From Callorhinchus milii (taxonomy: Eukaryota): a DNA stretch of 52,272 nucleotides. The stretch is from contig NW_024705351.1 of the NCBI RefSeq assembly GCF_018977255.1, positions 1 to 52,272 on the forward strand, read 5' to 3'. The position numbers were made by a program. How positions within the stretch are numbered: the first letter of the stretch is position 1; each line of letters opens with the position of its first letter. Of this stretch, positions 1 through 52,272 are shown piece by piece.

Positions 1-3000
1 CCGTTGGAGAGGACACGGTCATCACCCCGAAACAAGCATGAGAAGATCAGCAAAATAGGGAAGTGAAATCAAAAGGTGAAAACAAAGTGCTGCAATGAGT
101 CCTGAAAAAAATGCATCTTTCGAACCTATGCAGGTGGATCCTGAGAGATGCGTGGATGTAGTGGATGTAATGAGTCCTGACGACAATTCCTTTTCGACCC
201 CATGCAGTTGGATCCTGCGAGATGGCTGGATGTACTGAGCCCTGACGCCAATTCTTTTCGACCCCATGCAGGTTGATAATGAGAAATGGCTGCTGGAGTG
301 GCTGGATAATCAAAGTATTGAGTACTTCTGTTAAAGTCCTGGAATGTGCACGTTTGTGTCTCTGTTAGATCAATTTATTAGGTGCAATTGATTATATCAG
401 TGATTTCCAGCACTACTCCAAGCTAGTGTAATTACTTTAACAAAACCGTTTGATTGCTCTGGTGTTGGAAGCATTTTCACGGTCAGCAACACTTCACAGG
501 CATCATCAAACAAAGAGTAAAAATGTTGTCATGAGTCCTAAACGAAATTCCTCTTTCGACCCCATGCAGTTGCATCCTGAGAGATGGACTTCAAGCTAGA
601 GTGATGTTGTGAATGCTCTATAATGTGTTCAGATGAATGTCTTCCTTTTAAGTTCCAGAAGTGTTCACTGATTTCAGAATGACAACAATTTTATACTTTG
701 GACGAATGGCTTCAGTCGAAAAGGACGTCAAAGGGGAAATCGACGTTTACGTGTTTGATTTTAAGAATATCTTTTAACTGTTGAATTCCTATTGGGAAAT
801 AATTTGCCTAGTTCCTTTCCTGTTTGAGCCTGCGTATTAATAAAGATTTCGATACGAGTATTAACGTGAGTTTTCTTGCAGATTAATAAAGACCTGATTT
901 GTTTTTAAAGATGACTAATCGTACGTTATTGCTACCATAGTTTTCCTTTAAAAAAACACGGACGAGTAGACATACACACACGAGTGTGCATCCAAACACG
1001 ACTGTATATACAGCGTTGTGCATTCACACACGAGTGTGCATGTGTTTCTACGAGTTTTAACGTTAATATACTTGCAGAACAATAAAGACCTGCTATGTTA
1101 AAGATGACTGATCGTCCCTTATTGCTACAATGTTCATAGCGAACACGTGTGGAGGCGAGTTTCAGGTGAAGCATCTCCATCACACAAGTTTACCCTTACC
1201 TGGCAGCATCGTGGCAGTCCGCTGGTCACACTCACTACGTCACACTCATGACGTCACACTCATGACGTCACACTCACGAGCTGTAGGGGCGGGGCTCTGT
1301 CTGCTCAGTGGCGCTGTTTTCATTCATTTAGCACCACGAGCGGGGAGTCTCATTCCTATCACATTGCCCCTAAATTCTTTGTACGACACAATATAAAAAT
1401 AATTTGTTTGTTCCAATGCATAATCATACACGAGTACACATATACACTCCCATGTACACAGACCCACACACGAGTGGACATACACAGCGCTGTAGATACA
1501 TACACACACGGGTGCACATGCATACAAGTGCGCATGCACACACGAGTGTACATACACAGCAGTGTACGTACAAAGGGATTGCGTTCTACTACACGAACAA
1601 ATGTGCGAACAAATGATTGTACATACCTATACACACCATTCACGCATGTACATATCCACATCAACGAGTGTAAATAAACACACGAGTGGACATACACAGA
1701 AGTACAGATCCATGTACATACAAACAGTAGTATACTTGGATAGCGGGGTTTTGTGATTATTTTCACAGGTTAAGCTGACGATATGGATTTTAGATGCCCC
1801 ACAACAATTATTAACAATATTAGGAATATTGGCCTCATATTTAATGAGTGTATTGAAGTCATAGGTTGCCATTGCTACGGCACACTGGTTCGGATTATTC
1901 TTCCCATTTATGAAATCTCGCTAGAATCATTTGCATTTTATTCATGAACTTATTTGCATTCAATTGCTATTCACGGTACTAAAGCTCCTCATATCTAGCA
2001 ACATACCTAAGCTTTGTGCTTAAGCCTATGTAGGAATATGCTGAATCATCGTTCGCTTCCGTTTGAATACGGATGGGCATCTCCTTGAATAATTATGTGC
2101 ATGTTGTTAGTTTGCACATTTACAATGGCCTGTAAGCTGTAATCAATTTATCGGCTTTATCTGTGAAAATAAGTATAAAATGTTGCAATGCTGATAGAGA
2201 TATACTAAGAGGTGCATGCTTTATTGCGTGGTGACTAGGTTTCATGGATATTTTTGAGGACTCTTGTTGATGAAGGTGTGTCTAGACAACGAAGGTTATT
2301 TGTTATATTCGATCAGTTAAAAAGTGTTACCATTGCTGTTTTTTTACCCATCTGGATGGTTAATTTTTTTATCGTTGTTTGTTATTTTGTAACGCAACCA
2401 TTATTACATTTCAGTCTATAGCATAAAGTGTCTTGTGTATTTTCACTGCTGTGCATTAACAGTGCTGTGTGTATGTATGCGTGTATATATTTTGCACGTG
2501 TTTTCATGGTAAATGCATTGCATGTGGAGAAGTTACCAGCCCTTCGCACCTGTCCAGAGACCTCGTGGGCCGCTGTGGTGGCTACGAGCCTTCCCTCCAG
2601 GACATTGCTCACATCCACCACAGCGTTACCGTCCGGCATCGCCGATGAGGTAGGGGGGTTGTTTTTACAGAACTTTACTCATGTGTAGGGGAATCCCAAA
2701 CAACAGGGAGAGCAGCTCTTCTTCTGAACAAATTAATGAAGGAGCATAGAACCGTCACGGTGAGCTGTGGGAAGCTGTATGCCCCAGGCATGGAGTGGTG
2801 GTTGTTCCTTCCTGCACTGAAGGTGAACATCAGTGTAGAAATGCAGGCAAGGCTGATTAGTCATATGCCTTTCATAATATCCAGTATTTGAATCACACTG
2901 GGCTCGAATGCATACATTTTGTATGTAGCTATATTGGTACCAGATATGCGAGCTGCGGGATTTAAATTGCATTATAATCACTAGTATCACATTGTGGTCG

Positions 3001-51000: not shown

Positions 51001-52272
51001 CCCCGCTCTGCAGATAACCCTTCTTCCACGAGACCCAGCCTGGCGAGCACGATTGCTTGGCGACTGGTTGGGGACTTTGCTTCGGGAGAGTTCGTGGCGA
51101 TCTCTTCAGACGGTTACAGGGACATCGATACGCCGTGCATCAACAAGTAAGTGTCTTTGTTAGTGGATAAACTGGTAATCGCGTGTGTATTCCGACTTCC
51201 GAGCGTTACTGTGACTCGGTTAAACGTTAGTGGAGCAGAAAAAACTCTCCACAGCGGCACGCACACACGGGTAAGAAGCCATTCAATTGCGCTGTGTGCG
51301 GGAAGGCATTTGCAGATTCATCAACTCTCCGCAATCACCAAAAACACACGGTGAGAAGCCATTCAATTGCTCTGTTCGTGTGAAGGCATTTGCCCGTAAA
51401 GCAGATCTTCACACCACCAAAAACACACACGGGAGAGAAGCCGTTCAATTGTGCTGTGTGCTGGAAGGCATTTGCACGGAAATCAGATCTTCACAAGCAC
51501 CAGAAAACACACACGGGCGAGAAGCCGTTCAATTGCTCTGTGTGTGGGAAGTCATTTGCAGATTCATCAACTCATCACAAGCACCAGAAAACACACACGG
51601 GCGAGAAGCCGTTCAATTGCTCTGTGTGCGGGAAGTCATTTGCAGATTCATCAACTCTTCGCAATCACCAAAAAACACACTCGGGTGAGAAGCCGTTCAA
51701 TTGCTCTGTGTGTGAAGGCATTTCCCGTAAAGCAGATCTTCACACTCACCAAAACACACACGGGCGAGAAGCCGTTCAATTGCTCTCTGTGTGGGAAGCC
51801 ATTTTCACGGAAATCAAATCTTCATCGTCACCAGGAAACACACACGGACGATAAGCCATTCAATTGTTCTCCGTTGGAGAGGACACGGTCATCACCCCGA
51901 AACAAGCATAAGAAGATCCGCAATGATAGGAAAGTGAAATCAAAAGGAGAAATACAGATTGCTGCAATGAGTCCTGAAAAAAATGCATCTTTCGAACCTA
52001 TGCAGGTGGATCCTGAGAGATGCATGGATGTAATGAGTCCTGACGACAATTCCTATTTCGACCCCATGCAGTTGGATCCTGCGAGATGGCTGGATGTACT
52101 GAGCCCTGACGACAATTCCTATTTCGACCCCATGCAGGTTGATAATGAGAAATGGCTGCTGGAGTGGCTGGATAATCAAAGTATTGAGAACTTCTGTTAA
52201 GTCCTGGAATGTGCACGTTTGTTTCTCTGTTAGATCAATGTATTAGGTGCAATTGATAATATCAGTGATTTC

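What the first reader, a model, noticed from the sequence alone, without database searches (positions are those of the whole stretch)
1..52272. A D4Z4/DUX-style macrosatellite whose unit is a complete effector-less C2H2 ZF gene with an activator-like tail
Seen: at least 17 near-identical head-to-tail transcription units, with promoter, intron, coding exon and poly(A) signals all inside a ~2.8-kb unit. Known: typical vertebrate ZF clusters are diverged paralogues, often with N-terminal KRAB/SCAN/BTB domains, whereas homogenised TF macrosatellites (DUX4/Dux) or multicopy clusters (Zscan4) are linked to burst expression in early embryos. Inference: this is a lineage-specific, dosage-amplified sequence-specific activator, perhaps acting at zygotic genome activation, in the germline or in genetic conflict. 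I do not recognise the gene.
Basis: partly seen in the sequence, partly recalled or inferred. Interest (0 to 1): 0.85.

Follow-up and report, generated by a model that had tools for sequence, protein, structure and literature searches.

The report
Lamprey tandem array of zinc-finger genes
The window is a real head-to-tail array of a small lamprey-type zinc-finger gene with an unmatched acidic tail, but most copies are broken, so it looks more like a young, decaying gene array than a proven high-dose activator.

Summary
The repeat is real. The window holds 16 full units plus one partial unit, all on the + strand. Fourteen units are 2.7-3.3 kb, with spacers 95.8-100% identical. Two edge units are 5.3 kb and 94-97% identical to the rest. 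Each unit carries a TATA-like box, a short first exon, a ~149-nt intron, one coding exon and two AATAAA signals.

The exon encodes seven C2H2 fingers, a basic linker and a 77-aa acidic, aromatic tail that is predicted to be disordered. Neither the tail nor the unit contains any known effector domain, and the tail has no relatives in 1.84 billion proteins.

Only 2 of 16 copies (units 8 and 9) keep the 326-aa ORF. Fourteen carry frameshifts, and four also lost the acceptor and ATG. Exon and spacer show equal substitution and small-indel rates. Tail dN/dS is about 1.3.

The only specific relative is a sea lamprey gene model, LOC116936905, so the source is a lamprey, not human.

All homogenised copies share the same recognition helices. 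This is amplification without diversification. Dosage, ZGA and germline roles were not tested. I found no published description.

The parts
1..52272 (+). Head-to-tail array: one partial unit (1-331) and 16 full units. It runs off both ends of the window.
   Evidence: Anchors. Unit table. Spacer identity matrix.
332..11029 (+). Units 1 (332-5716) and 2 (5717-11029). These are 5.3-kb edge-type units with 2.3-2.5 kb of extra spacer (1603-3989 and 6979-9267). Unit 1 carries different finger helices (QKST/QKSN types) and a TATA variant.
11030..52200 (+). Units 3-16, the homogenised block. Unit ends are at 14336, 17670, 20684, 23571, 26341, 29115, 31922, 34642, 37553, 40584, 43282, 46206, 49268 and 52200.
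   Evidence: Most spacer pairs are 98-100% identical, falling to 95.8% for pairs that involve units 11 or 12.
27766..27775 (+). TATA-like box TATAAAGGGC of reference unit 8, 206 nt upstream of the exon-1 end.
   Evidence: Exact in 15 of 16 units. Promoter function is inferred.
27797..27981 (+). Inferred exon 1 of unit 8. The start is estimated at about 30 nt after the TATA box, and the exon ends at the donor CAA|GTAAGT. It contains an ATG at 27815 whose frame (55 codons plus 2 bases) is in phase with the finger ORF.
   Evidence: phase arithmetic only. The donor is present in 16 of 16 units. The ATG frame is present in 11 of 16 units.
27982..28130 (+). Inferred 149-nt intron of unit 8 (GTAAGT ... 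polypyrimidine tract ... AAAAATCAG).
   Evidence: Acceptor plus ATG are intact in 12 of 16 units. Not verified with RNA.
28135..29115 (+). Intact 326-aa ORF of unit 8 (P0001). It has seven C2H2 fingers (aa 20-208), a basic linker (aa 217-249) and an acidic tail of three 22-aa repeats (aa 250-326).
30942..31922 (+). Second intact 326-aa ORF (unit 9), differing from unit 8 at 2 residues.
26450..26609 (+). Frameshifted relic of one finger plus one tail repeat in the 3' UTR of each unit (coordinates for the copy after unit 7).
   Evidence: about 85% identical to tail repeat 2.
26898..26949 (+). Two AATAAA signals (26898-26903 and 26944-26949), about 558 and 604 nt after the preceding stop.
   Evidence: They sit at these offsets in the units without the palindromic insert.
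43855..44104 (.). Palindromic, MITE-like insert of about 250 bp (two 124-nt arms, 94% complementary) in the spacers of units 11, 12, 14, 15 and 16. Shown here for unit 14; the unit 12 copy is at 38081-38341.

Best explanation
This is a young, lamprey-lineage macrosatellite. It arose by tandem amplification of a small two-exon gene and is kept similar by unequal crossing-over and gene conversion.

The ancestral unit encodes a nuclear, sequence-specific DNA-binding protein. It has seven canonical C2H2 fingers, a basic NLS-like linker, and a disordered acidic and aromatic triple-repeat tail that most resembles an activation domain. It has no known repressor or oligomerisation domain.

All homogenised copies carry the same five recognition-helix types, so amplification multiplied one binding specificity rather than diversifying it.

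The array now evolves with no visible constraint on the ORF. Most copies are pseudogenes, and only a minority (2 of 16 here) can make the protein.

Shown: the array, its gene anatomy, the finger and tail features, the breakage, and the lamprey affinity.

Inferred: the promoter, the splicing, nuclear import, activator function, and any expression.
For: Array and homogenisation:
- 17 stop anchors and 16 donor anchors.
- Most spacer pairs among units 3-16 are 98-100% identical, falling to 95.8% for pairs that involve units 11 or 12.
- The units are distinct copies. They differ in finger number (insertions of 119-560 bp), in the MITE-like insert, and in intron deletions.
- Variants are shared by non-adjacent units. 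Deletion of an A at reference position 357 occurs in 6 units, a G at 286 in 4, an A at 273 in 3, and TGTT at 646 in 3.

Protein:
- Pfam finds only C2H2 families.
- AlphaFold2 gives seven beta-beta-alpha fingers at pLDDT 70-87. Residues 211-310 and 320-326 fall below 50, with a short helix at 309-319.
- The tail has a net charge of -14 and 21 W/F/Y/L/M in 77 aa. The linker has 10 K/R in 33 aa.
- Differences between fingers concentrate at helix positions -1, 1, 3 and 6 (6-8 nucleotide differences against 0-3 elsewhere).
- The helix types are identical across units 2-16.

Decay:
- 2 of 16 ORFs are intact.
- Small indels run at 2.7 per kb and substitutions at 4.8 per kb in the donor-to-stop segment. 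The spacer values are 2.4 and 4.5 per kb.
- Four units lack the acceptor and ATG.
- The A7 run in the tail is unchanged in 17 of 17 copies. A spacer A-run is split 6, 8 and 1 across three lengths, and a G-run is split 5 and 11. This fits inherited variants better than random consensus error.

Lamprey affinity:
- The exon-1 peptide hits Petromyzon marinus LOC116936905 at 89% identity, E = 6e-17.
- All of that model maps to the exon-1 region in three frames, plus the last 21 aa of the tail.
Against: - No RNA, read-depth or population data were available, so expression, true copy number and the reality of each frameshift are unverified.
- Small indels are about half as frequent as substitutions and sit mostly in short runs. 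This is also what long-read consensus error looks like, so some copies scored as broken may be intact.
- Tail dN/dS of 1.28 rests on only 2.5 synonymous and 13.5 non-synonymous differences, and one partner (unit 1) is itself a pseudogene.
- The tail ORF is continuous in 15 of 16 units while the finger region is broken in 14 of 16. This could mean selection on the tail, or simply fewer slippage-prone runs.
- Activator function rests on composition only.
Confidence: 0.55

Rival explanations
1. It is a functional, dosage-amplified activator array. Nearly all units are intact genes, and the frameshifts are assembly (consensus) errors in a hard-to-polish repeat.
For: - Most 1-bp indels lie in A6, G3 or T3 runs and are deletions.
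- The indel-to-substitution ratio is about 1:2 in both exon and spacer. From recall, this is higher than usual for real divergence.
- All regulatory-looking signals are kept in 12 of 16 units.
- The tail ORF is continuous in 15 of 16 units.
Against: - Homopolymer variation is site-specific. The longest run, the A7 in the tail, is invariant in 17 of 17 copies, while a spacer A-run varies in 7 of 15. A hand-computed hypergeometric p is about 0.002.
- The same indels recur in subsets of units, including a 4-bp TGTT deletion in 3 units.
- Deletions totalling 68-141 bp that remove the acceptor and ATG in 4 units are not consensus errors.
- Two intact ORFs out of 16 is about what chance gives at the observed indel density. 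My rough estimate is e^-2.6, or about 0.08 per unit.
Confidence: 0.2
2. The array no longer works through its protein. It is a transcribed or structural repeat, producing read-through or chimeric RNAs or acting as a chromatin or boundary element. The finger ORFs are relics.
For: - The sea lamprey model LOC116936905 strings together exon-1 copies in three reading frames and skips the finger region.
- An internal acceptor (CTCTGCAG|ATAACC) sits in exon 1, and acceptor-like CCCCATGCAG|G sites sit in the tail repeats (read).
- No constraint on the ORF is visible.
Against: - That model is an automatic prediction whose supporting evidence I could not see.
- Two perfectly canonical 7-finger ORFs persist.
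- No Rfam family matches.
- Nothing shows a non-coding function.
Confidence: 0.15
3. It is a repressor of mobile elements in the style of KRAB or FiNZ zinc-finger genes. An unrecognised effector would be encoded by exon 1.
For: - The exon-1 ATG frame (55 codons) is in phase with the finger ORF in 11 of 16 units.
- Lineage-specific ZNF expansions track transposable elements across metazoans (Wells et al. 2023, PMC10547256; abstract and passages read).
Against: - The exon-1 peptide matches no Pfam family. Its only relative is the lamprey model.
- All three frames of exon 1 are open for 43-96 codons, so openness is weak evidence.
- The ATG is absent in unit 1.
- Copies do not diversify their contact residues, unlike TE-tracking families.
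- The tail is acidic and activator-like.
Confidence: 0.07
4. It is an assembly over-expansion of 1-3 real copies, or cargo of a transposable element.
For: None beyond the general difficulty of assembling repeats. The spacers of units 4 and 5 are identical.
Against: - All 16 units are distinguishable by exon architecture, insertions and deletions.
- No terminal repeats or transposase or reverse-transcriptase domains were found. I scanned 10 ORFs from the unit-8 spacer and 8 from the unit-2 extra spacer.
- The arrangement is strictly head-to-tail.
Confidence: 0.03

Closest known systems
D4Z4 / DUX4 and other ORF-bearing macrosatellites (RS447/USP17, TAF11-like, CT47). Human macrosatellite literature seen as search listings and abstracts; details recalled.
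   Same: Kilobase-scale units repeated head to tail at very high identity. Each unit carries an ORF for a regulator. Evolution is concerted, and not every unit is productive.
   Different: The ORF here is a 7-finger C2H2 protein, not a double homeodomain. GC content is 42%, not GC-rich. Each unit has its own predicted intron and poly(A) signals. The host is a lamprey. Expression and epigenetic control are unknown.
Zebrafish chromosome-4 FiNZ zinc-finger genes and mammalian KRAB-ZNF clusters (Wells et al. 2023, PMC10547256; abstract and passages read)
   Same: A lineage-specific tandem expansion of poly-C2H2 genes. The finger exon behaves like a minisatellite.
   Different: Those families carry an N-terminal FiNZ or KRAB domain and diversify their DNA-contact residues under positive selection. 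Here no known effector domain is present, and units 2-16 share identical helices.
Petromyzon marinus LOC116936905 (P0123, 'uncharacterized protein', 231 aa)
   Same: It is the only specific relative. It is 74-89% identical at the amino-acid level to the exon-1 region in three frames, and 76-86% to the last 21 aa of the tail.
   Different: The model contains no fingers and no Pfam domain. It looks like a chimera of several units' first exons. It is a diverged paralogue or an orthologue, not the same sequence.
PRDM9-like genes, for example P. marinus LOC142908363 (P0109)
   Same: A terminal array of very similar fingers, 58-65% identical to those here. The finger-number instability is minisatellite-like.
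   Different: P0109 has SSXRD and PR/SET domains and the unit here has none. Derivation from such a gene is only a lead.

Membership tests
C2H2 zinc-finger proteins (Pfam PF00096 / PF13465) | Tandem C-X2-C-X12-H-X3-H fingers with TGEKP-type linkers and a beta-beta-alpha fold | tested here: met
   zf-H2C2_2 scores E = 4.7e-52 and zf-C2H2 E = 4.2e-39. Seven fingers match the pattern. The AF2 fingers have pLDDT 70-87.
KRAB, SCAN, BTB or ZAD zinc-finger families | An N-terminal KRAB, SCAN, BTB/POZ or ZAD domain encoded with the finger array | tested here: not met
   No such Pfam family in the ORF, in the two exon-1 peptides, or in 10 spacer ORFs of unit 8.
FiNZ zinc-finger genes (cyprinid) | The N-terminal FiNZ domain | not tested
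   I had no FiNZ model to hand. The exon-1 peptide found only a lamprey model among 53 candidates.
Macrosatellite (coding type, as D4Z4) | Head-to-tail units of 1 kb or more at high identity, each with an ORF | tested here: met
   16 full units of 2.7-5.4 kb. Most spacer pairs in 14 of them are 98-100% identical, falling to 95.8%. The ORF is intact in only 2 of 16.
DUX / D4Z4 family | A double-homeodomain ORF derived from a retrogene | tested here: not met
   No homeodomain found. A predicted intron separates exon 1 from the ORF.
Macrosatellite (coding type, as D4Z4) | Copy-number polymorphism and epigenetic silencing with burst expression | not testable with these tools
   No reads, methylation or RNA data were available.
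PRDM9-like | A PR/SET domain (with or without KRAB/SSXRD) upstream of the finger array | tested here: not met
   None in the unit. The lamprey PRDM9-like protein P0109 has them.
Acidic transcription activation domains | A disordered, acidic segment rich in bulky hydrophobic residues that activates a reporter | tested here: inconclusive
   Composition and disorder fit. Activity was not testable. The criterion itself is recalled.
Lamprey germline-specific (somatically eliminated) sequence | Present in germline DNA and absent from somatic DNA | not testable with these tools
   No read sets were available. The array is not among the Germ2-7 repeats, which have 13-57 bp cores (passages of PMC6826781). 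The supplements were closed.

The most novel reading that the evidence does not exclude
The array is a lamprey-specific, multicopy DNA-binding activator that sits on germline-specific chromosomes or fires in cleavage-stage embryos. It would act at zygotic genome activation or in marking chromatin for programmed DNA elimination. That would make it a jawless-vertebrate counterpart of DUX-type macrosatellite regulators, built from a zinc-finger gene with an orphan activation tail.
Probability: 0.07. Interest if true: 0.85.

Novelty: new member of a known kind. Interest (0 to 1): 0.42.

Why it matters
Coding macrosatellites that multiply a single transcription factor are rare, and the DUX family is the best-known example. 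A zinc-finger version in a lamprey would be an independent case.

Lampreys discard part of their germline genome in early embryos. An amplified DNA-binding gene there would therefore be worth testing for germline restriction or early embryonic expression.

On present evidence the claim is more modest. The array is a clean example of concerted evolution and decay. One specificity was amplified, there is no visible constraint, and 14 of 16 copies are broken. It also shows how such arrays mislead automatic annotation. The sea lamprey model LOC116936905 appears to be stitched from first exons in three frames.

Tried and rejected
- **Tail homology.** I found no hit by word-indexed search of proteins of 179-571 aa. 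HMMER against 1.84 billion representatives gave none at E <= 0.001. Pfam gave only Pkinase_C at E = 0.058, below its cut-off. PDB sequences gave a best E of 0.082. The ESM Atlas gave a best score of 0.84, generic finger clusters in the chance range.\n- **Whole-ORF homology.** I found only generic finger matches, at most 62% identical over about 63% of the query. No self-match appeared among the 120 hits listed of 7,274.\n- **Origin of the tail from finger DNA.** The local alignment score was 9-10, against a shuffle mean of 11.2. I rejected this idea.\n- **Self-binding.** I wrote a target motif from a recalled finger recognition code. It had 0 matches in the window at up to 3 mismatches. The test is crude and proves nothing either way.\n- **RNA genes.** Rfam found 0 and the tRNA search found 0.\n- **Transposon proteins.** Pfam found nothing above cut-off in the spacers or in the extra 2.3-2.5 kb of units 1-2.\n- **Bacterial promoter and terminator scan**. 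Not relevant to a eukaryote.\n- **CpG observed/expected of 0.89**. I first took this to point away from vertebrates. I dropped that reading after the lamprey hit, and after reading passages of 10.1101/033233 that describe intermediate methylation in lamprey.\n- **Literature.** Searches, and look-ups, found no description of this array or of LOC116936905.\n- **Cluster look-up**. It was unavailable, so the other members of the LOC116936905 cluster stayed unseen.\n- **Spliced product.** I did not build or search the joined product of the two exons.
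Full report
**1. What is in the window**

The 52,272-base window has no N. It is one head-to-tail repeat on the + strand.
- Tandem Repeats Finder reports an 84-bp repeat (one zinc finger) in 16 places and a 66-bp repeat in 15 places.
- An anchor around the stop codon occurs 17 times. An anchor at a splice donor (CAACAA|GTAAGT) occurs 16 times. An anchor at the start of the ORF occurs 14 times.
- Cutting at the stop codons gives one partial unit (1-331) and 16 full units.
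- Units 3-16 are 2,698-3,334 bp. Units 1 and 2 are 5,385 and 5,313 bp.
- The spacer between the stop and the next donor is about 1,640 bp. Among units 3-16 most spacer pairs are 98-100% identical, and many are above 99%. Units 4 and 5 have identical spacers. Pairs that involve units 11 or 12 fall to 95.8%.
- Units 1 and 2 are 94-97% identical to the rest and 98.1% to each other. They carry an extra 2.3-2.5 kb. They look like array-edge units.
- The array runs off both ends of the window.

**2. Anatomy of a unit (unit 8, 26342-29115)**

Reading 5' to 3' after the previous stop:
- A frameshifted relic of one finger plus one tail repeat lies at about 26450-26609.
- Two AATAAA signals lie about 558 and 604 nt after the stop.
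- A block of imperfect 16-18-nt ACACACGAGTG-type repeats follows.
- A TATA-like TATAAAGGGC is at 27766. It is exact in 15 of 16 units, against 1.75 chance matches expected.
- An inferred first exon ends at 27981 with a GTAAGT donor, which is present in 16 of 16 units.
- An inferred 149-nt intron ends in a polypyrimidine tract and AAAAATCAG. Acceptor plus ATG are present in 12 of 16 units.
- A single coding exon follows.

The promoter, the splice and polyadenylation are inferred from consensus signals only. I had no RNA data.

**3. The protein**

The unit-8 ORF (28135-29115, P0001, 326 aa) has the following features.
- It starts inside a degenerate finger end (..[11 protein letters not shown]).
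- It has seven C-X2-C-X12-H-X3-H fingers with TGEKPF linkers.
- It then begins an eighth finger that breaks off ([11 protein letters not shown]).
- A basic linker follows, with 10 K/R in 33 aa.
- A 77-aa tail of three 22-aa repeats follows: (M/L)SP..N.(S/Y)F(D/E)PMQ(V/L)D..(R/K)(W/C)(L/M). It has 18 D/E, 4 K/R and 21 W/F/Y/L/M, for a net charge of -14.

Pfam finds only C2H2 families. AlphaFold2, run on the single sequence, models seven beta-beta-alpha fingers at pLDDT 70-87. Residues 211-310 and 320-326 fall below 50, with one short helix at 309-319. The tail is therefore predicted to be disordered.

The helix residues (-1 to 6) are DSSTLRN, RKADLHT, RKSDLHK, DSSTHHK, DSSTLRN, RKADLHT and RKSNLHR. 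Fingers 1-2 and 5-6 are near duplicates, which indicates an internal four-finger duplication. Nucleotide differences between fingers concentrate at helix positions -1, 1, 3 and 6 (6-8 differences against 0-3 elsewhere). This is the usual signature of past diversification of DNA contacts.

**4. A possible N-terminal extension**

The first ATG after the TATA box is at 27815. It opens a frame of 55 codons plus two bases that is in phase with the finger ORF across the predicted splice. This holds in 11 of 16 units.

I worked this out by phase arithmetic only. Following the operators' note, I searched the two exons separately: the exon-1 peptide, and the exon-2 ORF.

The evidence for this extension is weak. 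All three frames of exon 1 are open for 43-96 codons. The ATG is missing in unit 1. The peptide matches no Pfam family.

**5. State of the copies**

- Only units 8 and 9 keep the whole ORF. The other 14 of 16 are frameshifted.
- The partial unit at the window start is frameshifted in its tail.
- Units 3-6 have 119-560 bp of extra fingers. Units 11, 13, 14 and 16 lost the acceptor and ATG through deletions that total 68-141 bp. Unit 10 lost the polypyrimidine tract.
- Many small indels recur at the same sites in non-adjacent units. Loss of an A at reference position 357 occurs in 6 units, a G at 286 in 4, an A at 273 in 3, and TGTT at 646 in 3.

Are the frameshifts assembly errors?
- For that view, most are 1-bp deletions in A6, G3 or T3 runs. 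Small indels are also about half as frequent as substitutions. From recall, that is high for real divergence.
- Against it, the densities are the same in the donor-to-stop segment and in the spacer. The segment has 46 small indels and 83 substitutions over 15 units x 1.144 kb, or 2.7 and 4.8 per kb. The spacer has 56 and 105 over 14 units x 1.664 kb, or 2.4 and 4.5 per kb.
- Run-length variation is also site-specific. The A7 run in the tail is A7 in 17 of 17 copies. A spacer A-run is split 6, 8 and 1 across three lengths, a G-run is split 5 and 11, and most A5 and T5 runs never vary.
- Random consensus error should hit the longest run hardest. Shared variants spread by unequal exchange explain the pattern better.
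- The large deletions cannot be consensus errors.

I conclude that most breaks are probably real, but only accurate reads can settle it.

At about 2.6 small indels per kb, an unbroken 981-bp ORF is expected in roughly 8% of units by chance. Two intact copies are therefore not evidence of selection.

Between unit 1 and unit 8 the tail gives dS = 0.041, dN = 0.052 and dN/dS = 1.28, from 2.5 synonymous and 13.5 non-synonymous differences. This shows no constraint, but the power is low and unit 1 is itself broken. One observation points the other way. The tail ORF is continuous in 15 of 16 units.

**6. One specificity, many copies**

Across units 2-16 the intact fingers fall into the same five helix types. 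Unit 1 has different helices ([28 protein letters not shown]).

The homogenised block therefore multiplies one predicted specificity. This differs from KRAB or FiNZ families, which diversify contact residues (Wells et al. 2023, PMC10547256; abstract and passages read).

**7. Relatives and source organism**

- The whole ORF finds only generic poly-finger proteins, at most 62% identical over about 63% of the query. There was no self-match among the 120 hits listed of 7,274.
- The tail has no relative. There were 0 hits in the word-indexed search of proteins of 179-571 aa. There were 0 hits at E <= 0.001 among 1.84 billion representatives. Nothing significant appeared in PDB sequences, and only chance-level Atlas neighbours turned up.
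- The exon-1 peptide finds one protein among 53 candidates. It is Petromyzon marinus 'uncharacterized protein LOC116936905' (P0123, 231 aa), 89% identical, E = 6e-17.
- tblastn of P0123 against the window shows that all of it maps to the exon-1 region in three different reading frames (74-89% identity), plus the last 21 residues of the tail (76-86%). It has no Pfam domain.
- P0123 therefore looks like an automatic model stitched from the first exons of several units of a homologous array, skipping the fingers.
- The window thus comes from a lamprey. It is either a diverged paralogue in the sea lamprey or an orthologue in a related species. I do not take it for human.
- The most similar fingers I aligned (65% over 176 aa) belong to a sea lamprey PRDM9-like protein with SSXRD and PR/SET domains. 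Descent from the terminal finger exon of such a gene is a lead only.

**8. How it most likely works**

Shown:
- the tandem array;
- concerted evolution with mosaic sharing of variants;
- a canonical 7-finger ORF with an orphan acidic disordered tail;
- the absence of known effector domains;
- breakage of most copies.

Inferred: the few intact units, if transcribed from their TATA promoters and spliced as predicted, would give a nuclear, sequence-specific DNA-binding protein. Its tail would recruit co-activators in the way acidic-hydrophobic activation domains do (criterion recalled).

Because most copies are broken and there is no sign of constraint, I rate 'young, largely decaying gene macrosatellite' (0.55) above 'dosage-amplified functional activator' (0.2).

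**9. Comparison and novelty**

Structurally this is a coding macrosatellite in the sense of D4Z4. It is not a DUX member, since it has no homeodomain and has a predicted intron. It is not a KRAB, SCAN, BTB or ZAD gene.

I found no paper describing it.
- Searches turned up nothing.
- Passages of the reissner lamprey T2T preprint, of PMC6826781, of PMC10166183 and of PMC12184396 do not mention it. The abstract of PMC5381345 describes other repeats.
- The germline repeats Germ2-7 have 13-57-bp cores, so they are something else.
- Supplementary tables of those papers were closed and could list this repeat or gene.

**10. What stayed unchecked**

- There was no eukaryotic genome, read or RNA collection. 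I therefore could not test copy number, germline restriction, expression, methylation, the array ends or other species.
- CpG observed/expected is 0.89 over the window. Lamprey genomes are only intermediately methylated (passages of 10.1101/033233), so this does not show germline hypomethylation.

Noticed in passing
window 43855-44104 (unit 14); also 38081-38341 (unit 12) and the same spacer site in units 11, 15 and 16: A near-perfect palindrome of about 250 bp (two 124-nt arms, 94% complementary, 2 nt apart) is inserted in 5 of 16 spacers, with AT-rich inner parts. It looks like a foldback or MITE-type element that spread within the array by unequal exchange. It adds extra AATAAA motifs to the 3' region.
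   Followed up: partly
window 7230-7293: A perfect 64-nt palindrome (32-nt arms, no spacer) lies in the extra spacer of unit 2. Its arms resemble the outer arms of the MITE-like insert. It may be a collapsed copy of the same element at another site.
   Followed up: no
window 1603-3989 and 6979-9267: Units 1 and 2 carry 2.3-2.5 kb of extra spacer with no recognisable protein domain. The segment contains a 145-nt inverted repeat (7986-8130 / 8609-8753, 89%) and an inverted partial copy of the promoter-proximal region (7438-7609 against 9476-9630).
   Followed up: partly
window 26450-26609, and the same place in every unit: A frameshifted relic of one zinc finger followed by one tail repeat sits in the 3' UTR. 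It is about 85% identical to tail repeat 2. The unit therefore already contained a partial duplication before it was amplified.
   Followed up: partly
window 27010-27320; expanded at 6332-7080 in unit 2: An imperfect 16-18-nt periodic repeat of the ACACACGAGTGTGCAT type lies in the spacer. It has 12 copies in unit 2. Function unknown.
   Followed up: no
window 27694-27981 (exon-1 region of unit 8): All three forward frames are open for 43-96 codons up to the donor. The sea lamprey model LOC116936905 uses all three. This is a warning that automatic annotation of such arrays yields chimeric proteins.
   Followed up: yes
window 28892-28898 against 27004-27009: The A7 run inside the tail ORF is invariant in 17 of 17 copies, while a similar A-run in the spacer has three length alleles. 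This was useful as an internal control against random homopolymer error.
   Followed up: yes
whole window: CpG observed/expected is 0.89 at 42% GC, which is high for a vertebrate. It is probably explained by the intermediate methylation of lamprey genomes, but I did not compare it with the genome average.
   Followed up: partly
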